Assembly (NCBI GenBank): GCA_028282925.1
Contig: JANQGV010000012.1
Location: forward strand, 7,787 to 71,786
DNA: 64,000 nt
Source of the DNA: Thermodesulfobacteriota bacterium
GTDB lineage: Bacteria; Desulfobacterota; WTBG01; CAIYCZ01; CAIRTM01
Direction of reading: 5' to 3'
Each line of letters opens with the position of its first letter. The stretch's first letter is position 1. This document shows positions 54,251 through 64,000 of the stretch, piece by piece. The position numbers and the translations under genes were made by a program. The notes under the pieces are model-generated. The model saw only the letters and a list, made by a program, of their open reading frames with translations. It ran no database searches and was not told the DNA's origin.

Positions 54251-54280
54251 AATGGTAGAGGCGGGGGGAGGCAAACACCC
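54251..54280. repeat. Degenerate copy of a tRNA/tmRNA 3'-end-like attachment-site repeat (direct repeat copy 1)
   Basis: AATGGTAGAGGCGGGGGGAGGCAAAC compared with AATGGTGGAGGCGGGGGGAGTCGAAC at 58132: about 24 of 27 positions identical, same orientation, 3.85 kb apart. Confidence 0.5.
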
Positions 54281-56170: not shown

Positions 56171-57829
56171 TTACCGGTTGCACCCATATCCTTTGATAAT
56201 TTCTCCCCATTTTGCATCCACCTGTGCCAGGGCGTCAGGCGCCCCCTGTTCAAGCAGCGTGCGGTTCAGCTCCGGATACACATCCGGGCCGCCCTCTTCG
56301 GGCCATTGCCGGGTGGCGTCGATAACGATCTTGCTGGTCTTGCCGCGCACCTTCGAGCTTGGGTCCAGAGGTAAGCCCCGCGCCTCCTTGATAATGTGAC
56401 TGGCGGTGCCGGGCAGCCAGCGCGTGATAAGGGAATTATCCACCTGGGCCGAGTCCAGGATATCGATATCCTCGTCCACAACGATCACCACCTTGAAGAT
56501 CGGTACCATAGAGGCCAGCTTTTTGCCGGCTTCGAGGCCCTGGCCCGCGGCCGTTTTTTTTATCCGGACATATGTTAGGCCGGGAGCGTGGACCGGGGAA
56601 TGCAGCTCGATCAGCTGAGGAATGAACCGCTTAAATGCAGTGTTGAAAATCACTGCGGTGGGGCCTGTGACGAATCCCCGGGTCGCACCGGTAAACACAT
56701 TCAGGAGCCAGGGGTCTTGGCGGTGGGTCACCGTCGTGACGTTCATGAAAAAGTTCTCTTTCTTCTGCGGTCCCAGATAACCGCACATCTCGCCAAAAGG
56801 TCCCTCGGGAAGTCCGGGCTGGTCCAGCGGGATTTCACCCTTAATGACGAGCTCCGCGTGAGCAGGAACCAGAATATCGCTGGTTTCACAGCGCACGACT
56901 TCCAGCGCCTTGCCCCGCAGCCCGCCTGCTATGGCCAGCTCGTCGATGGGTCCCTTGCGCCTGCGATTGGCAACCTTTGAGCCGCTGACCACCCATACAT
57001 AGGGATCCTGGCCCAGCACAAGCGCGACTTTGGCGCTTTTTTCGCCCCGCTTTTTGGCCGCCATCAGATGTTTCCAGCCGGTCTGGTTCGGTTCGGGATT
57101 GATGCCGATGATACGGGGCCCCCGGAGCTGGCATCGATAGGTGCCGAAATTCATTCCCATCTTCGGGTCAGAGGTAAAAACCGAGGCCGAGTTGATGTAG
57201 CGCCCTCCATCGGAAGGGTTGCTCTGTATAAAGGCAAAGCGGGTGACATCGACCTCATTCCCCCGCAGCACGACCTGTTTACACAGGGCCTGTTCCTTTT
57301 GAACTTCAATAGGCTTGATCGGCGGATACTCGCCTTTCTTCAACCGCCCCTGAAGGTGAGCCATTGCTTTGCGATAGGTCCCGCGGGGGTCACCGGGAAT
57401 CGGCTCCACTCCGAAGAGGATAGCTTCGGTATCCAGGTGCCCCTGGTGATTAGCAACCAGCGGCCCCCGGACCCACTGTCCGTTGATTTTAACCTGTTCG
57501 GCCAAAATTGCCGGTGCTTCTTCATGGCCGTATTCATCAATAAGCCGGTACATCAGGGCGCTCATTTCATAGGCATCCTGATCCAGTTTTTCAAAGCGCA
57601 GCAAAAGGCCGCGTTCCTCAAGGGCCCTGACATAGTCACGAAAGGTGTCGAACGGCGCCGACAAGGTGGCCGTTCGCGATGTTGTGCCTGCACCTGATGC
57701 AGGGGAGGGGGATCGGGTCCCTAATACGCAGCCGGCGGTGACAGCGGCTACGCCGACAGCGCCGGTGGTCAGAAAGTTACGTCGGGATATGCTGCAACTG
57801 CTTTTTACGGAGTGCGTTTTTTCAGCCAT
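56171..57829 (-). CDS. UbiD-family (prFMN-dependent) decarboxylase with a twin-arginine (Tat) signal peptide. True start MAEKTH at 57829, with a GGAGG RBS
   Basis: Tat motif SRRNFLTTGAVGVAAVTAG. UbiD core with EGPFGEMCGYLG (compare the canonical EGPFGExTGYY) and ELAIAGGLRGKALEVV. Confidence 0.8.
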   Translation of the reverse strand: MAEKTHSVKSSCSISRRNFLTTGAVGVAAVTAGCVLGTRSPSPASGAGTTSRTATLSAPFDTFRDYVRALEERGLLLRFEKLDQDAYEMSALMYRLIDEYGHEEAPAILAEQVKINGQWVRGPLVANHQGHLDTEAILFGVEPIPGDPRGTYRKAMAHLQGRLKKGEYPPIKPIEVQKEQALCKQVVLRGNEVDVTRFAFIQSNPSDGGRYINSASVFTSDPKMGMNFGTYRCQLRGPRIIGINPEPNQTGWKHLMAAKKRGEKSAKVALVLGQDPYVWVVSGSKVANRRRKGPIDELAIAGGLRGKALEVVRCETSDILVPAHAELVIKGEIPLDQPGLPEGPFGEMCGYLGPQKKENFFMNVTTVTHRQDPWLLNVFTGATRGFVTGPTAVIFNTAFKRFIPQLIELHSPVHAPGLTYVRIKKTAAGQGLEAGKKLASMVPIFKVVIVVDEDIDILDSAQVDNSLITRWLPGTASHIIKEARGLPLDPSSKVRGKTSKIVIDATRQWPEEGGPDVYPELNRTLLEQGAPDALAQVDAKWGEIIKGYGCNR

Positions 57830-58074
57830 GGATAACCTCCATTGGGTGGAAAAAGAAAAGATTGTTAAATTAATCAATGTATAGTGAGATGTCTTTTTGA
57901 TGATTAATTTTAAGTGGAAAATATAGATAAAACACATTGATGTGTCAATAGAAGTGAACCTGCCCTTTGCAAGAACTAAAATCCGAATGATTTTTGCCTA
58001 ACAATATACTGGGACGAATAAGGGACATAATTATTTTCAGGAAGGATGGTTTTCTATTAAACATGGCGGTGGTG

Positions 58075-58138
58075 CACCATTCGACTCACGTTGTTCACTC
58101 AGGGTTTACCATGAGCGAGCGTAGCGAGTCGAATGGTG
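58075..58138. repeat. Long imperfect hairpin (13-bp arms, ~38-nt loop) abutting the att-like repeat
   Basis: CACCATTCGACTC at 58075-58087 is the reverse complement of GAGTCGAATGGTG at 58126-58138. The GAGTCGAA core recurs a third time at 58151. Confidence 0.45.
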
Positions 58139-58158
58139 GAGGCGGGGGGAGTCGAACA
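58136..58158 (-). repeat. Fragment of the 3' terminus of a tRNA/tmRNA (T-loop, T-stem 3' half, acceptor 3' half, ACCA), probably an attachment-site scar at the island boundary
   Basis: The reverse complement reads TTCGACT-CCCCC-CGCCTCC-A-CCA: a T-loop fitting TTCRANY, five Cs, a 7-nt acceptor half, discriminator A, then CCA. It has no matching 5' half (no GGGGG before the T-loop), so it is a 3' fragment and not a gene. The AT-rich DNA begins at 58161. Confidence 0.55.
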
Positions 58159-58324
58159 TGGCATCTATATATTTGTAATATAATAATTATATATAGAATT
58201 TAGTTTTCATGTACCCCCAGTTAAAGTTAATGCCCCCTGGAAATGTAAAGAGTATCCTAGTAGCAAGTATACACTCTGGGTCGCATGGAATTAAAGCTTT
58301 CCGTGGAGCGATCGCTACCAGGGG

Positions 58325-59398
58325 CTATAATATTTCGTACTTCCAATAATCTTTAATCGGGATTCCGTAATCGTTGGCATTTTTTAAGTCATAGGTAACT
58401 TCAAAAGTGCAACACATGCATTTTATCTGCCAGCTGTATTTATATGCCCGCTCATATCTACCATCAGGGGTCTCTCCTTCCACCTCAATATTATCATAAA
58501 CGACCAAGGCCGTTACTCCGCACACAGGACATTTATCTATTTGTTCAAAATGATTTTTTTGGGCTTGTGCTGCAGCTTCTGACTGTTTGATTATCTCGTT
58601 ATTTAAGAACTTTCCATGCATTTTTTCATCTGTAATTGGATTTTCGTATGCTGCTCTACCTAGTGCTTTTGCATAAGCGAATTTACCGACATCATAATCA
58701 TTTTTTTCATTATATAGAAAATCCAAAGGATCAAAATTTATATTCAACGGTTTGTATTTCCATAATATGTTTCGCCCCCTATATCTATCTAGTGCAATAA
58801 CTTTTCTCAAAAAGGGTAAAAAATATTTGCAGATGAATTTGTCTAATGAATCATATCTCAGAATAAAGGATCCTCTATGCCAAATTCTGTTTCTTAGGGT
58901 ATTTAACTTTTCCAACATATTTTTTTTATCAATGATGAATTGATATGATAAATGATTTTCAATTTCTTCATTTTTTATAAGATCAGCTAACCTTTTTAAT
59001 GACTCCGAAAATTCGATTGATCTGATGCCTGATTCTTCTTCGGGTCTTAACTGTTCCCCGGTGAGAAGTTTTTTTAAGACTATTGTTTGTGTTGAGGCAG
59101 TGTCTGCCAACAATGGATGTACGGTCCTGAGAATATCTTTTATTATAAGTTCTGTAAAATGATGAAGGTGTAATATGGTTTCAGCTGCATATTCAAAATA
59201 CTCAAAATGTGTGTTGAAGTCCTTTTTTTCGTTATCTTCATCATTCATGAAAACACTTAGGCTATACTTCATTGCTTTATACGTAGAAAAGTAGGCATGA
59301 AGTCCAAGCCTAAGCGAATAAAATGCAAACCCAGCGATGTTTTTTTCTCTTTTGTCTAATAGTATACCGTCTTTACAAATTCTGGAAAGTTCTAACAT
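58325..59398 (-). CDS. Hypothetical protein with a HEPN-like Rx4H motif and a C-terminal Cys4 zinc-ribbon; candidate Abi/defence RNase
   Basis: LRNRIWHRG contains the R-N-x3-H motif typical of the HEPN family. C-terminal CPVCG...(26 aa)...CMCC. AT-rich codon usage like the rest of the island. Confidence 0.5.
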   Translation of the reverse strand: MLELSRICKDGILLDKREKNIAGFAFYSLRLGLHAYFSTYKAMKYSLSVFMNDEDNEKKDFNTHFEYFEYAAETILHLHHFTELIIKDILRTVHPLLADTASTQTIVLKKLLTGEQLRPEEESGIRSIEFSESLKRLADLIKNEEIENHLSYQFIIDKKNMLEKLNTLRNRIWHRGSFILRYDSLDKFICKYFLPFLRKVIALDRYRGRNILWKYKPLNINFDPLDFLYNEKNDYDVGKFAYAKALGRAAYENPITDEKMHGKFLNNEIIKQSEAAAQAQKNHFEQIDKCPVCGVTALVVYDNIEVEGETPDGRYERAYKYSWQIKCMCCTFEVTYDLKNANDYGIPIKDYWKYEIL

Positions 59399-59603
59399 TT
59401 TTTTTGATCCCTATAAGCTATTTAATTTGTCCGTATCTCAATCTAGGTGTCGCACTCATCGGACTCTTCACCGTTGATACACCCTTCATGAGATGCGTAT
59501 GATGTATTGAGAACACCGTCTTCATGGTACATCTCTGCTTTCCTTTCTCTAATCATGAGGCGTGTTCCGAATCGTGACAGTGGGTTAATGTTAGGTTTTA
59601 GCT

Positions 59604-62531
59604 TCAGCCCTTAAGTAATTCTCGAAATTCAAGATAACCACGACTGCCCAGATAATGAATAAAATCCTCAGCCGCTGAAGCTGCTGGTGATCGTAGAACC
59701 TTTATCAAGATAGACTTTGCATGGTCACGCCAGCCATATACGCCCCAGCCTTCCCGATCACCTCTAGCCATCAGTTCAAGGCAGGTAACAGTCTCGGTTG
59801 GCATTGAAGGAGCAAGTTCTTCTAGCTTTTCCAACACTTCGTCTTCCGGCTCAATCTTCCCGGCGATCCTTATTGCTTCAATCAATTGTGCCAGTGCCCA
59901 GCAATCATCATAAACACCTGAAGCAAACCACCATCCGAATTCTCGCATTTCATATTTATACTTGTCATGTTCCGCACTCTCTTTGGCAGCTGCAAGTCTC
60001 TCTTCCCAAAATAGTTTTAAACGATCTAGGATTTCAGGCAATACTGTTTGCTTATAATCATACAAGCTTCGACCTACGTATTCTACAGCATCTCCCCGTA
60101 GTTCAGGGTCTGCCTTTTCCCAAAATTGATCAAATATAACCCTAGTTTCTTCACCGCTAAGTTTGCCTCGCCAATAAAGTGTCATTACATGCTCAGCGAG
60201 ATGCCTGTCCGCATCATATATGCTGTGACCGCTACCCTGTATATCAATCTGCTTAACAGCATACTTGTACTGGTCTGTAAGTAATTCAAAGACATTATCA
60301 TACACGGAACAGTAAACAACGTAAGTATTCCATGCTGCATAAAAATATTTTTCAGAAAGGTTATCCAATGGAAAGATGTTGAATATCTGCTCAGCAGACC
60401 AACTAGAATCAAGCAGAACCAGCCAGGGGAACCATTGACCATAGACGGCCCTGATTGCAATGGAGGGATCTTTTGATACATCAAGATGGCGCTCAAGCAT
60501 TGTTCGCACTTCTTGCATTTCATCAAAGCCACGGCTGATAAGCTCTGGTGAATCAGATTGCTTATCAAAATATCGTCGGAGCCAAAGAGCATAACGCACA
60601 ACAGCATGCATTGCTTCACCGCGGGTCGTGTTGATAGAAAGGGTAACCGGATCCAAGTTTTCATCACCATACTGTTCTTCATCCTCCGGTGCCGGATCAG
60701 GGTCGTCTGTCAGCGACTCAAGTATTTGCCATACGATTTCACGATCTTCTATAGCAAAGCCTCCAACCTCTTCATCGAACCCAGCTGACAAAAGTCCTGC
60801 AATGGCCTTCCGAGTCCAGCCCCAGTCAGGGTCCATATCAAAATCCTTGTCTGGCCTGCCAGGTATCTCGTGTGGCTGATCCATTATCCAGCGGCAAAGA
60901 TCAATTACAGATTTCCATTGAAAATATTTACCTAATTTTAAAGCCGATTGAAGACCGGATAACAATGACCGCACATATGTTGGATCAAGTTCTTTAAAAG
61001 AATGGGCGTTTTTTGCATATGTTTCTGGGTTTTGAGTTGCAATCGCGGAAAGTTCTCTGCCCAAACCTTCAGGAGAAGATTTAAAAGGACCCTCAGGCGG
61101 TGCCCATGTTCTGAGGAATTCGACAAGTTCTTCAATCGACATTTTTTTTAAATTTTCAGCGTTTACAGGGCTTGTCGGCCCTACCCAACTGCATGTGATT
61201 CTTCCCTCAGGTTTTGGTTCTCCATATTCTGATACCAATTTATCATAATACGTTTTCCAGCCTTCAGGCAGACTCTCTTTAATCCAATTGAGCCGAAAAA
61301 GTTGCCAGGTCTTTGTATATCGTGCGTTGTCATCATCGGTAACCTTTTCGCCGGTTCTCCGTTCTCTACTTTGTTTATATGAAGCCACTTCCGGTCCTTG
61401 TTCAATCCAACTCAATATTTTTTGTTTCTGCGCAATAGTTAAATTATCAAAATGTTCTCTGATTAACAGCGAATATTCATGTTCTAAGCATCGGTCATTG
61501 AACAGTTCCATAGATGTAAGATAGTTTGCAGCTGTCTCCGGAACAACATTAGAGTACAATCGTAGTATGTGGAGGGATATGCGTTTGAAAATTTTCCATG
61601 GATAGCGTTCAAGTGTTTGAATTAGTACAGGAACTTTGGATGTATCCTGCTGTGCAATCTGCTCAGCCCCAGCACGTACTGCTTTAACCAAGGCATGGTT
61701 GATTCTGCGGCCACGGTTCTGTTCATTCTCCTCAACAGACGGGCGCCATATATAGGAATAATCTTCAAAACCGTTATCCTTTGTATTTCTGCCTGACAAG
61801 TCAATGTAGGATTGCAGCAGATCACAGAACAGCTCTAACGCTTCAAAATCACCTGCTCGAACAAGCTCGGGCATAATCTTTTCTAGAATTTTATTATATT
61901 GGTAATTATCAAACCTGGCTTTTGGCTCATAAGGATAACTATGTTTTTGTTCTTTCTCTGAATCGTTTTTTGAATGTGAATCCGGCAGGATTTCAAACAT
62001 CACCCGGGCCAAGTCCAAAGCAGACGCTGTTTGTCCACCCTTTGCCAAGTTTACTATAAAGTGAGCAAGTTTTTCTGTAAGTGACATTTGATATTTTGTG
62101 CCCGCCCAAGTTTTAGCTTTATCCAGTAATCTGACAGAAATTTCAGGCGGCATCTTAATGGCCACATCCGCAAGGTCTTCATACACCCGGACATTATTCG
62201 TATCCGGTATCTGCAAAACAATTGCAAGAACCTTTTCCGGTTCGATTGCAGCCATCCGAGCCAGATAGCGTGATTCTGGCCAAGGGGGTAGGCTGATTGT
62301 TCCTTTAACTTCATCAATCTCAGCTTTTGGTGGTTTTGTAAAAAAACCCTCTGTTTTAAGGGGGTCTATCCACTCAGGAGCATCAAGTCGATCAAAAAAG
62401 TACTTGCAAACACCTTCATCTTCTATAAGTTTTTTTATTCTCTCTAAGCTATCTGCAATTGGATGTTGTATGAGCAATCTATCTATTTCGCTTATTCTGT
62501 TAAAAAATTTATCTTGGCTCAATTCACCCAC
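59604..62531 (-). CDS. Large (975 aa) all-helical protein, translationally coupled downstream of the SIR2 gene; candidate sensor/partner subunit (DSR2 C-terminal-domain analogue?)
   Basis: No Walker A/B or other catalytic motif. Trp-rich and predicted alpha-helical throughout. Its start codon lies 7 nt after the SIR2 stop. Confidence 0.6.
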   Translation of the reverse strand: MGELSQDKFFNRISEIDRLLIQHPIADSLERIKKLIEDEGVCKYFFDRLDAPEWIDPLKTEGFFTKPPKAEIDEVKGTISLPPWPESRYLARMAAIEPEKVLAIVLQIPDTNNVRVYEDLADVAIKMPPEISVRLLDKAKTWAGTKYQMSLTEKLAHFIVNLAKGGQTASALDLARVMFEILPDSHSKNDSEKEQKHSYPYEPKARFDNYQYNKILEKIMPELVRAGDFEALELFCDLLQSYIDLSGRNTKDNGFEDYSYIWRPSVEENEQNRGRRINHALVKAVRAGAEQIAQQDTSKVPVLIQTLERYPWKIFKRISLHILRLYSNVVPETAANYLTSMELFNDRCLEHEYSLLIREHFDNLTIAQKQKILSWIEQGPEVASYKQSRERRTGEKVTDDDNARYTKTWQLFRLNWIKESLPEGWKTYYDKLVSEYGEPKPEGRITCSWVGPTSPVNAENLKKMSIEELVEFLRTWAPPEGPFKSSPEGLGRELSAIATQNPETYAKNAHSFKELDPTYVRSLLSGLQSALKLGKYFQWKSVIDLCRWIMDQPHEIPGRPDKDFDMDPDWGWTRKAIAGLLSAGFDEEVGGFAIEDREIVWQILESLTDDPDPAPEDEEQYGDENLDPVTLSINTTRGEAMHAVVRYALWLRRYFDKQSDSPELISRGFDEMQEVRTMLERHLDVSKDPSIAIRAVYGQWFPWLVLLDSSWSAEQIFNIFPLDNLSEKYFYAAWNTYVVYCSVYDNVFELLTDQYKYAVKQIDIQGSGHSIYDADRHLAEHVMTLYWRGKLSGEETRVIFDQFWEKADPELRGDAVEYVGRSLYDYKQTVLPEILDRLKLFWEERLAAAKESAEHDKYKYEMREFGWWFASGVYDDCWALAQLIEAIRIAGKIEPEDEVLEKLEELAPSMPTETVTCLELMARGDREGWGVYGWRDHAKSILIKVLRSPAASAAEDFIHYLGSRGYLEFRELLKG

Positions 62532-62537
62532 CTCCCT

Positions 62538-63434
62538 TTATATGTCAAAGCCACTTTTAAAAGGTGCTGGCCTTTTTTTCATATCACTATGTTCAACACA
62601 TCCGCGTAGTATTTCTTCAAGCCCCCTAAAATCATCACCTTTTGGATCAAATATGATTGGTTCAATTTCCAAAGCGCTAAAAAGGGCTATCATTTCATCA
62701 TATTCTTCTTTTTGTTCCCCAGTCTTTTGATTTAATGCCGGCCACAAAATGTGTTTAGTAAATATTTTCGATATGCTTGTTTTTGGTTTGATCTCCAATT
62801 GAATTGTATTCGCATATGTGATTAACTCACTAAGATATCTTTCTGTTGGATTAAACCCAATGAATAACACTTTTTCATAAACAAAAAGGTTCAGTAAAAA
62901 CCCTGGCAATAAGCTTTCTTTGCCATACGCACCTTTAAAAGCCCTTTGACCAAAAATCAATTTGTGGTGTTCGTAATTATTCTTTTCAGAGTCATAGCAT
63001 CCATGAATATAATACAAAGCCTGTTCCAACCCTTTCGACATAGATATATCTGGATAAGCATATCTTGCATTGATATCTTCATGCCTGAAGTGATTCTCAA
63101 CCCAAGGATCAAAATTTGTTGTGATAAAAGCTTTAAAAGGGAGTCGTGGTATATAATTTAAAGCTGGTCTGGAAGTTGCAATGTCTTTTGGGAAGAATTC
63201 TTGAAATGTTTTTTCATATTCTGATGGATTAGCATCAAAACATGCATCAATAACCTGTGGTAGGTTCTCAGAGTCAAAATCAACCCTACAACGGTCTGCA
63301 ATTTTCTTAACGCTTTCTTTCCATAGCTCCCCCGGAGGAATAGATAATCCTGCACCAAAAAAGACAATACAGTCCCCACCTAAAACAACTTTTTTTATTT
63401 TGTCAATCGCATCTGTTTCTGCAGTGCGTTTCAT
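62538..63434 (-). CDS. SIR2-family (defence-type SIR2_2-like) NADase-domain protein
   Basis: Rossmann motif VFFGAGLSIPPGELW, ITTNFDPW (compare TTNYD of ThsA/DSR2 SIR2 domains), catalytic-His context YYIHGCYD, and VLFIGFNP (compare FIGYS). 298 aa. Confidence 0.75.
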   Translation of the reverse strand: MKRTAETDAIDKIKKVVLGGDCIVFFGAGLSIPPGELWKESVKKIADRCRVDFDSENLPQVIDACFDANPSEYEKTFQEFFPKDIATSRPALNYIPRLPFKAFITTNFDPWVENHFRHEDINARYAYPDISMSKGLEQALYYIHGCYDSEKNNYEHHKLIFGQRAFKGAYGKESLLPGFLLNLFVYEKVLFIGFNPTERYLSELITYANTIQLEIKPKTSISKIFTKHILWPALNQKTGEQKEEYDEMIALFSALEIEPIIFDPKGDDFRGLEEILRGCVEHSDMKKRPAPFKSGFDI

Positions 63435-63607
63435 TGCACTTCACCTCGGGGAAATTTCATCAGAGACGGACAGTCGTTGGACTACAAAATTGATTCATTT
63501 CAGGTTTATGTGTTTGCTTATTTCCCGCAACAAAATAGTTATCAAATTAATACATATGATGCTTTTTATTTTTCTGAGCGAAAAAAATAAGGATGTCCTT
63601 ATGTATT

Positions 63608-64000
63608 TCAAGAGCTCGATCCGGGGTGCGCGAATGTTGTTTCGCGAGTTATTTTGTTTTCTTTTTCCAGATGAACCAAAACCCAAGGTAATATTTTGTT
63701 CAAAGCCTTTTCATTAGGGTAAGCAGTAATTAGAGAATTTTCAATTTCAGTTTTTCCTGCTTCTGAATTTTCAATCAATAGCTCTGAGGTTTCGGGCGGG
63801 ATGTATTCATAAATATTAAATTTTTGCTTAATAAAAAACAGATTTTCATTGATTACGGGAATTGCTCTTTGCTGCTGTTCGGCGTTTAATGCGTTTAAAA
63901 GTGTTTCTGTCAGATATACTCCATGTGGTAACCCGACCATGGCATCATGTGCATATTGGATCCCCCTGCCACCACATAGACTTACGCTTGTATGTTGTGA
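63608..64000 (-). CDS. Hypothetical protein, 5' end beyond the window (the frame stays open through 64000)
   Basis: Minus-strand reading frame with no stop between 63940 and 64000 (…STTYKRKSMWWQGIQYAHDAMVGLPHGVYL…). Upstream of, and in the same orientation as, the SIR2 operon. Confidence 0.4.
   Translation of the reverse strand, partial: SQHTSVSLCGGRGIQYAHDAMVGLPHGVYLTETLLNALNAEQQQRAIPVINENLFFIKQKFNIYEYIPPETSELLIENSEAGKTEIENSLITAYPNEKALNKILPWVLVHLEKENKITRETTFAHPGSSS

What the first reader, a model, noticed from the sequence alone, without database searches (positions are those of the whole stretch)
58325..59398. HEPN-motif plus zinc-ribbon protein in the same island
The 357-aa AT-rich ORF contains LRNRIWHRG, an R-N-x3-H motif typical of the HEPN family. 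Its helical body is followed by a C-terminal CxxC...CxCC zinc ribbon. HEPN RNases are common abortive-infection effectors. It could be an independent Abi-like toxin or a third component of the SIR2 system, since it has the same orientation and lies 205 nt downstream.
Basis: partly seen in the sequence, partly recalled or inferred. Interest (0 to 1): 0.5.

Follow-up and report, generated by a model that had tools for sequence, protein, structure and literature searches.

The report
Stand-alone HEPN RNase with zinc ribbon
This gene encodes a member of a rare, unnamed family of single-gene proteins that join a predicted HEPN RNA-cutting domain to a zinc-ribbon tail; it most likely acts alone as an anti-phage suicide RNase and is not part of the neighbouring SIR2 system.

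Summary
Window 58325-59398 (-) is an intact 357-aa ORF with 33% GC. It carries R169-N-R-I-W-H174 and a Cys4 zinc ribbon (C290/C293/C327/C330).

It belongs to a rare family (495 clusters at 50% identity among 1.84 billion proteins). Members are about 360 aa and found in many phyla. All named members seen are called 'hypothetical', and none has a significant Pfam, NCBIfam or PDB sequence match.

The HEPN assignment rests on four results:
- Invariant ExxxK in helix 2 and RNxxxH at the end of helix 3.
- A high-confidence AlphaFold model (pLDDT 91.9).
- Weak profile links to PADLOC PDC-S64 and DUF3644.

The gene is a solo module. In 46 loci no neighbour or small ORF is conserved, and none holds a SIR2/Dsr1 relative. 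The split SIR2 + 975-aa Dsr1-like pair recurs elsewhere without it. Homologues sit in defence islands and in a P2-like prophage.

The closest known systems are the validated HEPN + zinc-finger defences HEC-08/DS-38 and RAZR (PD-T7-4). It is not a member of either.

Verdict: a new variant of a known kind. Function is inferred and untested. Interest is moderate.

The parts
58325..59398 (-). Complete ORF of 357 aa: the HEPN + zinc-ribbon protein (end coordinate includes the stop codon)
   Evidence: ORF list. 154 homologues at E<=0.001 in 5.8 billion proteins. 495 cluster representatives in 1.84 billion.
58796..59326 (-). Predicted HEPN domain, residues 25-201: helix 1 (25-51), helix 2 (65-93), helical insert (94-158), helix 3 (159-175), helix 4 (182-201)
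59138..59152 (-). E83-L-I-I-K87: the Ex3[KR] motif in helix 2, preceded by invariant H77 and H80
   Evidence: E83, K87, H77 and H80 are invariant in A1. Ex3[KR] in helix 2 is the second HEPN hallmark (PMC3710099).
58877..58894 (-). R169-N-R-I-W-H174: the Rx4H catalytic motif at the C-terminal end of helix 3
   Evidence: Invariant R169, N170, H174. Kept in 233 of 234 full-length members. Position at the end of helix 159-175, as described for HEPN.
58550..58795 (-). Middle helical region, residues 202-283. It includes the most conserved stretch outside the catalytic helices, K244-E-L-G-R-A-A-Y-x-N-P254, and a variable linker helix (252-283).
   Evidence: Alignment and conservation profile. No match to any family or structure; role unknown.
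58394..58549 (-). C-terminal Cys4 zinc ribbon, residues 284-335. Knuckle 1 is C290/C293 (58520-58531) and knuckle 2 is C327/C330 (58409-58420). A variable, acidic beta-hairpin (299-322) lies between them.
   Evidence: The four Cys are invariant. Strands 284-289, 296-307, 317-327 and 333-335. Sub-threshold Lar_restr_allev matches in 23 of 40 members. Local Foldseek match to a phage 'restriction alleviation protein', prob 0.69. Inter-knuckle entropy 2.40 bits, 22% D/E against 7% K/R.
59399..59603 (-). 205-nt spacer between the 975-aa Dsr1-like gene and this gene; presumed to hold the gene's own promoter and ribosome-binding site
   Evidence: No promoter or terminator consensus above shuffle expectation. 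In other loci the upstream gap has a median near 220 nt beside unrelated genes. The presumed promoter is an inference only.

Best explanation
The gene encodes a self-contained, single-protein immune effector of mobile defence islands. Its N-terminal HEPN domain is a metal-independent RNase. The active site is formed by R169/N170/H174 at the end of helix 3, helped by E83/K87 (and perhaps H77/H80) in helix 2. By analogy with other HEPN enzymes, the site would be completed by dimerisation. A conserved helical middle region and a C-terminal Lar-like Cys4 zinc ribbon would keep the enzyme latent and couple its activation to a phage-derived cue. RNA cleavage would then arrest translation and abort the infection. 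The gene is independent of the adjacent split Dsr1-like SIR2 system and merely shares a low-GC island with it. Shown here: the ORF, family conservation, the predicted HEPN-like fold and motifs, the zinc-ribbon signature, the solo gene organisation, and the defence-island and prophage contexts. Inferred: RNase activity, dimerisation, latency, the phage trigger, the sensor role of the zinc ribbon, and the abortive outcome.
Confidence: 0.6

Rival explanations
1. It is the third component of the adjacent SIR2 / Dsr1-like system, for example a second effector or a sensor co-transcribed with it.
For: Same strand, 205 nt downstream of the 975-aa gene, within the same low-GC island. No clear terminator or promoter in the spacer.
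Against: tblastn finds homologues of this gene in 46 fetched loci, and none of them holds a relative of the SIR2 or 975-aa protein within up to 10 kb. The 975-aa relatives in L043-L047 (5 contigs, 3 distinct loci), with a SIR2 gene in L043-L045, have no homologue of this gene nearby. The SIR2 + 975-aa pair together covers Dsr1 model positions 123-207 and 295-1119 of 1227, so it already forms a complete known single-protein system split in two.
Confidence: 0.03
2. It is the toxin of a toxin-antitoxin or addiction module that stabilises the mobile element. Its antitoxin would be an unrecognised small RNA, a very small peptide, or its own C-terminal half.
For: HEPN toxins of MNT-HEPN modules are the best structural matches (5yep_B, 7ae2_A, 8xdj_A). 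The gene sits on islands, a prophage and a few plasmids.
Against: There is no MNT or other conserved neighbour. No conserved ORF of 25-95 aa lies within 450 bp on either side outside closely related genomes. No Rfam family was found in the window's island. The protein is about 2.5 times the size of the matched HEPN toxin chains (130-150 aa), with conserved extra domains. An intramolecular 'antitoxin' would in practice be the same as the latent-effector model.
Confidence: 0.12
3. It is a non-defence RNA-processing or regulatory protein, or a HEPN-fold protein that binds nucleic acid or nucleotide through the zinc ribbon without cleaving RNA.
For: Some HEPN families are non-catalytic or have housekeeping roles (PMC3710099). 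One close homologue lies beside efflux genes rather than defence genes.
Against: The complete catalytic signature (Ex3K plus RNxxxH) is invariant, unlike in non-catalytic HEPN families. The family is very rare and patchy: 495 clusters in 1.84 billion proteins and 2 of 5426 E. coli genomes. It lies in low-GC or mobile DNA, which does not fit a housekeeping role.
Confidence: 0.15
4. It is a counter-defence (restriction-alleviation-like) protein carried by mobile elements, as hinted by the Lar-like zinc ribbon.
For: Sub-threshold Lar_restr_allev matches in 23 of 40 members. A local Foldseek match to a phage 'restriction alleviation protein'. One homologue lies in a P2-like prophage.
Against: The Lar similarity is confined to about 50 residues of a generic zinc ribbon and is below every threshold. 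There was no hit in 50,697 phage records. Most copies are chromosomal and outside recognisable prophages. The conserved part of the protein is the RNase signature.
Confidence: 0.05

Closest known systems
HEC-08 (Payne et al. 2024 preprint, 10.1101/2024.01.29.577857) = DS-38 / 'HEP2', WP_001313577.1 (DefensePredictor, PMC13092281)
   Same: A single protein of almost the same size (366 aa against 357 aa). The domain order is the same: an N-terminal HEPN domain with RNRxxH and Ex3K, then C-terminal zinc-ribbon module(s). Both have the same best structural match, SO_3166 / 5YEP. Both hit PADLOC PDC-S64. hhalign aligns the catalytic helices and a shared S-[IV]-x-[FY]-x-E motif. HEC-08 protects against phage, and its H128A mutant does not.
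   Different: There is no significant direct sequence similarity: BLASTP E 3.3, hhalign probability 5-16%, and the HEC-08 model is hit by 1 of 40 members at E 0.008. HEC-08 has eight invariant CxxC pairs (about four zinc ribbons) and lacks the KELGRAAY helical region. This family has one Cys4 ribbon. The HEC-08 homologues listed are all Enterobacterales. HEC-08 was found embedded in Hma systems, and its homologues are labelled 'hsdR'. This family spans many phyla and has no fixed neighbour.
RAZR = PD-T7-4 (Zhang et al., Nature 2026, PMC13017515)
   Same: A single-gene abortive-infection system that pairs a Cys4 zinc ribbon with a divergent HEPN RNase. It is not toxic until a phage protein activates it. 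The zinc-finger domain binds the trigger and sets specificity, and the HEPN domain cleaves RNA. It is the best mechanistic template.
   Different: The domain order is reversed (zinc finger N-terminal, HEPN C-terminal). RAZR is about 25 kDa, against 357 aa here. Its HEPN domain is DUF4145 with an Rx7H spacing (R146/H154), whereas this family has Rx4H. DUF4145 does not appear in the Pfam scan of the family. PD-T7-4 is hit by 4 of 40 members, at E >= 0.018. Ring-templated 24-mer assembly is not testable here.
PADLOC PDC-S64 (phage defence candidate; model PDLC05059)
   Same: It is the only library model that the family hits repeatedly: 22 of 40 members, best E 2.9e-6. For the window protein E is 0.0013, with residues 67-174 matching model positions 32-114 of 339. 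That stretch runs from helix 2 to the RNxxxH motif. The model length is similar.
   Different: The matches are weak and cover only the HEPN core, so this looks like a sister family rather than the same one. No paper in the library mentions PDC-S64. It is a candidate with no reported test.
MNT-HEPN toxin-antitoxin toxins (e.g. SO_3166, PDB 5YEP; 7AE2)
   Different: Those toxins are 130-150 aa and are paired with an MNT antitoxin; that pairing is my own knowledge. Here there is no MNT neighbour, and there are about 155 extra C-terminal residues and a 65-residue insert.

Membership tests
HEPN superfamily (Anantharaman et al. 2013, PMC3710099) | Conserved Rx4-6H motif with a polar residue (N/D/H) directly after the R | tested here: met
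   R169-N170-R-I-W-H174. R, N and H are invariant in 40 sequences. The motif is present in 233 of 234 full-length members. Definition.
HEPN superfamily (Anantharaman et al. 2013, PMC3710099) | Four-helix up-down core, with the motif at the end of helix 3 or the start of the helix 3-4 loop, and a frequent insert between helices 2 and 3 | tested here: met
HEPN superfamily (Anantharaman et al. 2013, PMC3710099) | Second conserved acidic residue in helix 2, typically as Ex3[KR] | tested here: met
   E83-x3-K87, both invariant, inside helix 65-93.
HEPN superfamily (Anantharaman et al. 2013, PMC3710099) | Significant profile match to a recognised HEPN family | tested here: inconclusive
   There is no Pfam or NCBIfam hit above threshold. 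HEPN_Swt1 matches 2 of 40 members at E 0.17. PADLOC gives PDC-S64 in 22 of 40 (2.9e-6), DUF3644 in 4 of 40 (0.01) and Csm6 in 3 of 40 (7.8e-4). hhalign against the DS-38/DUF3644 family gives E 0.0017, probability 16%.
HEPN superfamily (Anantharaman et al. 2013, PMC3710099) | Metal-independent RNase activity that depends on the R and H; composite active site at a dimer interface | not testable with these tools
   This needs biochemistry or a multimer model. Only a monomer model without accessible coordinates was available.
HEC-08 / DS-38 | Match to the HEC-08 model (PDLC04162), N-terminal DUF3644 | tested here: not met
   DS-38 scores 4.6e-173 on HEC-08 and 2.8e-71 on DUF3644. The window protein hits neither at E <= 1. 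Across the family, 1 of 40 members hit HEC-08 (0.0083) and 4 of 40 hit DUF3644 (>= 0.01).
HEC-08 / DS-38 | Several C-terminal zinc-finger modules (eight invariant CxxC pairs) | tested here: not met
   A4 shows 16 invariant Cys in CxxC pairs. This family has four invariant Cys forming one ribbon.
RAZR / PD-T7-4 | N-terminal Cys4 zinc-finger domain followed by a C-terminal DUF4145 HEPN domain; about 25 kDa | tested here: not met
   The order here is HEPN then zinc ribbon, and the protein is 357 aa. DUF4145 does not appear in the Pfam scan of 40 members. PD-T7-4 is hit by 4 of 40 members at E >= 0.018. Definition.
RAZR / PD-T7-4 | Activation by assembly around phage ring proteins | not testable with these tools
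   This requires experiments.
Dsr1 (defence-associated sirtuin) system, as a component | Conserved co-occurrence with the SIR2 and Dsr1 C-terminal genes | tested here: not met
   0 of 46 homologue loci hold a SIR2 or 975-aa relative, and 0 of 5 contigs (3 distinct loci) with the Dsr1-like 975-aa gene hold this gene.
MNT-HEPN type II toxin-antitoxin | Adjacent minimal nucleotidyltransferase antitoxin gene | tested here: not met
   No conserved neighbour was found, and no nucleotidyltransferase family is among the recurrent Pfam hits of 137 neighbours.
Zinc ribbon (Cys4, two knuckles on beta-hairpins) | Two CxxC pairs, each at a beta-hairpin turn | tested here: met
   C290/C293 lie between strands 284-289 and 296-307. 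C327/C330 lie between strands 317-327 and 333-335. All four Cys are invariant. Metal binding itself was not tested.

The most novel reading that the evidence does not exclude
The family is a previously unrecognised, phylum-spanning single-protein immune sensor-effector. Its conserved KELGRAAY helical region and Lar-like zinc ribbon, with a variable acidic hairpin, would recognise a phage protein or nucleic acid directly. That recognition would switch on the HEPN RNase by a route different from both RAZR (ring templating) and HEC-08/DS-38 (multi-zinc-finger tail). It would be a third, independent solution to pairing a zinc ribbon with a HEPN domain for immunity.
Probability: 0.3. Interest if true: 0.6.

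Novelty: new variant of a known kind. Interest (0 to 1): 0.4.

Why it matters
If the prediction holds, this roughly 360-aa protein would add a compact, single-gene, RNA-targeting defence found in many phyla. These include Desulfobacterales, Planctomycetes, Gammaproteobacteria, Bacillota, Cyanobacteria, Myxococcota (Cystobacter, Polyangiaceae), Chloroflexota (Viridilinea) and Fibrobacter. Pfam, NCBIfam and PADLOC do not recognise it. It would also give a third example of the HEPN + zinc-ribbon pairing next to RAZR and HEC-08/DS-38, which allows comparison of how a small zinc module gates a dangerous RNase. For this window, it settles that the island carries two separate systems, a split Dsr1-like SIR2 pair and this solo gene, and not one three-gene system.

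Tried and rejected
- **Library scans of the protein and of 40 family members (Pfam, NCBIfam, PHROGs).** Only sub-threshold zinc-ribbon (Lar) and noise hits came back.
- **Sequence search of the PDB.** The single protein, the full-length profile and a HEPN-core-only profile found no HEPN chain.
- **Foldseek against PDB and BFVD.** Nothing significant. HEPN toxins appear only at E 4-5 with target-normalised TM 0.5.
- **The afdb50 library.** It was not available.
- **hhalign of the family against one RiboL-PSP HEPN protein from L049.** Uninformative.
- **Metagenome scan with the 975-aa neighbour.** No confirmed relative. It was replaced by a homologue search plus contig look-ups.
- **Promoter and terminator scan of 57800-64000.** Counts equal shuffle expectation, so the transcription unit could not be decided.
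- **tRNA, tmRNA and Rfam scans of the island.** Nothing found.
- **Search for a conserved small ORF as an antitoxin.** None outside closely related, syntenic genome pairs.
- **Npun_R5629.** The 'Zinc Ribbon (Npun_R5629)' HEPN fusion listed in PMC3710099 Table 1 might belong to this family. I could not retrieve that sequence, so this stays an untested lead.
- **Rejected: 'third component of the SIR2 system'**.
- **Rejected: membership of HEC-08/DS-38 or RAZR**.

Full report
**1. The observation**

Window 58325-59398 (- strand) is an intact ORF of 357 aa starting at an ATG. Its GC content is 33.4%. The surrounding stretch 58158-64000 has 39.1% GC and the rest of the window 51.8%, so the gene lies in a low-GC island. 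The peptide LRNRIWHRG is present, with R169-N170-x3-H174 encoded at 58877-58894. So are C290-P-V-C293 and C327-M-C-C330. The upstream same-strand ORF (975 aa, 59604-62531) ends 205 nt before this gene.

**2. A real, conserved, unnamed family**

A search of 5.8 billion proteins found 154 homologues at E <= 0.001. Almost all are 340-400 aa, cover about 98-100% of the query, and are 34-57% identical to it. They have no precomputed Pfam domain, and every source name is 'hypothetical protein'. Named sources include Vibrio, Yersinia, Citrobacter, Salmonella, Aeromonas, Pseudomonas, Bacillus, Priestia, Neobacillus and Lysinibacillus.

An exhaustive profile search of 1.84 billion cluster representatives found only 495 at E <= 0.001, and 303 at E <= 1e-30. 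These again have a uniform length, and only a few of the 150 listed carry N-terminal extensions of up to about 160 residues. The family is therefore rare, sharply delimited and essentially of fixed architecture.

A genome scan returned 37 loci. They come from Desulfobacterales, Planctomycetes, Gammaproteobacteria, Bacillota, Chloroflexota (Viridilinea), Ignavibacteriae, Nostocales, Myxococcota (Cystobacter, Polyangiaceae), Fibrobacter and Spirochaetales. Only 2 of 5426 complete E. coli genomes carry a copy. There are three plasmid hits and no hit in 50,697 phage records.

**3. Conserved residues**

In a 40-sequence alignment (A1) the invariant residues fall into three groups:
- H77, H80, F81, E83, L84 and K87.
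- N166, R169, N170, H174 and G176.
- C290, P291, C293, G294, C327 and C330.

A further very conserved stretch, K244-E-L-G-R-A-A-Y-x-N-P254, has no known counterpart.

**4. Fold**

AlphaFold2 with A1 as the alignment gave mean pLDDT 91.9 and pTM 0.90. The secondary structure is:
- Helices 25-51 and 65-93.
- A helical insert at 94-158.
- Helix 159-175, a short loop, then helix 182-201.
- Further helices up to residue 278.
- Four strands (284-289, 296-307, 317-327, 333-335), with the Cys pairs at the two hairpin turns.

The published definition of the HEPN domain (PMC3710099, read) lists four features:
- An Rx4-6H motif with a polar residue after the R.
- That motif placed at the end of helix 3, or at the start of the loop to helix 4.
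- A conserved acidic residue in helix 2, usually as Ex3[KR].
- A frequent insert between helices 2 and 3.

All four are met: R169-N170...H174 at the end of helix 159-175, E83-x3-K87 in helix 65-93, and the insert at 94-158.

**5. Profile links**

No Pfam or NCBIfam model is matched above threshold. In PADLOC the window protein weakly hits the candidate model PDC-S64 (E 0.0013), with residues 67-174 matching model positions 32-114 of 339. Across the family, 22 of 40 members hit PDC-S64 (best 2.9e-6), 4 hit DUF3644, 4 hit PD-T7-4, 3 hit Csm6 and 1 hits HEC-08, all weakly.

The C-terminal ribbon gives sub-threshold Lar_restr_allev matches in 23 of 40 members. It also gives a local Foldseek match to a phage 'restriction alleviation protein' (probability 0.69 over 48 columns). 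I read this as a Lar-like zinc ribbon fold.

**6. Is it part of the SIR2 system?**

The neighbours are a SIR2_2 protein (298 aa, 62538-63434) and the 975-aa protein. They match PADLOC Dsr1 model PDLC04166 at positions 123-207 and 295-1119 of 1227 respectively. Together they form a Dsr1 split into two genes.

I called ORFs in the 37 genome loci plus the window and clustered all neighbours. The target family is present in all 38 loci, but no other cluster occurs in more than 4, and those are shared only by closely related genomes. Scanning 137 flanking proteins showed no Pfam or PADLOC family in more than 2 of them. No ORF of 25-95 aa within 450 bp is conserved outside closely related, syntenic genome pairs.

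A direct tblastn test gives complete mutual exclusion. Homologues of this gene occur in 46 fetched loci, and none of those holds a SIR2 or 975-aa relative. Relatives of the 975-aa protein occur in L043-L047 (5 contigs, 3 distinct loci), with a SIR2 gene directly upstream in L043-L045, and none of these holds this gene.

The 'third component' reading is therefore rejected. The gene is a solo module that shares an island with a two-gene Dsr1-like system.

**7. Genomic company**

Flanking genes in other genomes include:
- Citrobacter: Eco57I-type and Dam methyltransferases, ScoMcrA/HNH enzymes and SymE.
- Pseudomonas: a Cap4-nuclease gene, with MvaT genes.
- The 37 genome loci: type I RM subunits, Cas10c, pAgo, DrmD, SngA, PDC-M37A and PDC-S17.
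- Yersinia: a mobilisable island (MobA, TraD, AlpA) with an HD/HD_assoc protein.
- Salmonella and E. coli: an integrase/AlpA/H-NS island.
- Aeromonas veronii: a P2-like prophage. The gene lies between the portal gene and the gpA replication gene, beside GmrSD_N and HEPN_RiboL-PSP genes. From my own knowledge, not checked in the library, this part of P2-like phages is a known cargo site for anti-phage genes.

The closest homologue (57% identity, Desulfobacterales) sits next to an RND efflux operon, with no defence gene within the 8 kb upstream that the short contigs hold. Defence-island residence is therefore frequent but not universal. I did not compute a formal enrichment statistic.

**8. What it most likely does**

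Two experimentally validated systems pair a HEPN RNase with zinc-ribbon modules in one polypeptide.

[quoted passage not shown] Its best structural match is SO_3166 / 5YEP, and the H128A mutant loses defence. HEC-08 is the same protein family as DefensePredictor's DS-38. I took the DS-38 sequence (WP_001313577.1, 366 aa) from that paper's supplement, and it scores 4.6e-173 on the HEC-08 model and 4e-8 on PDC-S64.

*RAZR (PD-T7-4).* It has an N-terminal Cys4 zinc finger and a C-terminal DUF4145 HEPN domain. It is non-toxic until phage ring proteins template its assembly. Its zinc-finger domain determines specificity, and the enzyme cleaves RNA nonspecifically to inhibit translation (abstract).

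Profile-profile alignment of this family with a 34-sequence DS-38 alignment pairs E83/K87 with E56/K60, SIEFSE with SVTYxET, and RNRIWH with RNRVVH. The statistics are weak (E 0.0017-0.008, probability 5-16%).

My best explanation follows from these templates. The protein is a latent single-protein HEPN RNase. Its C-terminal half, made of the conserved helical region and the zinc ribbon, gates activity and senses infection, and activation leads to abortive infection. One observation fits a recognition surface: the beta-hairpin between the two zinc knuckles is among the most variable segments (entropy 2.40 bits) and is acidic (22% D/E against 7% K/R). The ribbon as a whole, however, is not more variable than the rest of the protein. 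RNase activity, dimerisation, latency, the trigger and the outcome are all inferences.

**9. Membership and novelty**

The protein meets the testable defining features of the HEPN superfamily: both motifs, their placement, and the predicted fold. It lacks a significant profile match to any named HEPN family.

It is not a member of HEC-08/DS-38. It has no significant model hit, one zinc ribbon in place of four, and a different middle region. It is not a member of RAZR either: the domain order is reversed, the HEPN domain is not DUF4145, and the motif spacing differs. It is not an MNT-HEPN toxin, because it has no MNT partner.

It is best described as a sister family of PDC-S64 and DUF3644-type HEPN proteins with its own architecture. 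I found no paper on PDC-S64 and none that describes this family. I rate it a new variant of a known kind. Interest is moderate (0.4): a specialist would not be surprised by another HEPN + zinc-ribbon defence gene, but the family is unannotated, found in many phyla and compact, and it offers a third architecture for comparison.

**10. Dead ends**

- afdb50 was unavailable.
- Exact look-ups gave no source organism.
- The first metagenome scan with the 975-aa protein found nothing.
- The promoter and terminator scan was no better than shuffles.
- There is no tRNA, tmRNA or Rfam match in the island.
- A single-sequence hhalign to a RiboL-PSP HEPN protein was uninformative.
- The HEPN-zinc-ribbon fusion Npun_R5629 named in PMC3710099 could not be retrieved for comparison.

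Noticed in passing
window 58134-58157 (-) and 54251-54277 (-): GTTCGACTCCCCCCGCCTCCACCA looks like the T-arm, acceptor and CCA 3' end of a tRNA-Ala- or tmRNA-type gene (acceptor CGCCTCC, with the U that would pair G3:U70). It lies just beyond the end of the HEPN gene, where GC content rises from 39% to 52%. A degenerate 27-nt direct copy (89% identical) lies 3.9 kb further on. No intact tRNA or tmRNA is in the window. These are probably att-site remnants of island integration, with the intact target gene beyond 64000.
   Followed up: partly
window 59604-63434 (-): SIR2_2 protein (298 aa, 62538-63434) plus a 975-aa protein (59604-62531) together match one PADLOC Dsr1 model, at positions 123-207 and 295-1119 of 1227. 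This is a Dsr1 split into two genes. The same pair, abutting or overlapping, recurs in metagenome contigs L043 and L044/L045. The 975-aa family has more than 430 relatives. Some are about 1130-1150 aa long, and one (L046) has a different small upstream gene in place of SIR2, which suggests exchangeable effector modules.
   Followed up: partly
window 63608-63940 (-): A 110-aa ORF at the upstream edge of the island has no match in Pfam, NCBIfam or PADLOC. It has no tblastn match in any fetched locus.
   Followed up: partly
L049:7001-10469 (Aeromonas veronii contig): A homologue of the target lies in a P2-like prophage between the portal gene and the gpA replication gene. It is next to a GmrSD_N gene and a HEPN_RiboL-PSP gene, so two different HEPN-bearing cargo modules sit side by side in one prophage slot.
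   Followed up: no
proteins P0373-P0491 (DS-38 / HEC-08 homologues): The validated 366-aa HEPN + zinc-finger defence protein DS-38 is the same family as PADLOC HEC-08 (E 4.6e-173). Many of its homologues are labelled 'hsdR' in NCBI records, although they are not type I restriction subunits. This looks like an annotation error spread from their position near hsd loci.
   Followed up: partly
window 58637-58669 (-), residues 244-254: K-A-L-G-R-A-A-Y-E-N-P (family consensus KELGRAAYxNP) is the most conserved 15-residue window of the family (mean majority frequency 0.84). It exceeds the catalytic helices, and it matches no known motif or family.
   Followed up: no
L044:9473-10267: Downstream of a split Dsr1-like pair in a metagenome contig lies a 264-aa gene with a faint hit to the Pfam SACS family (PF25794). 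It is not related to the target family by tblastn.
   Followed up: no
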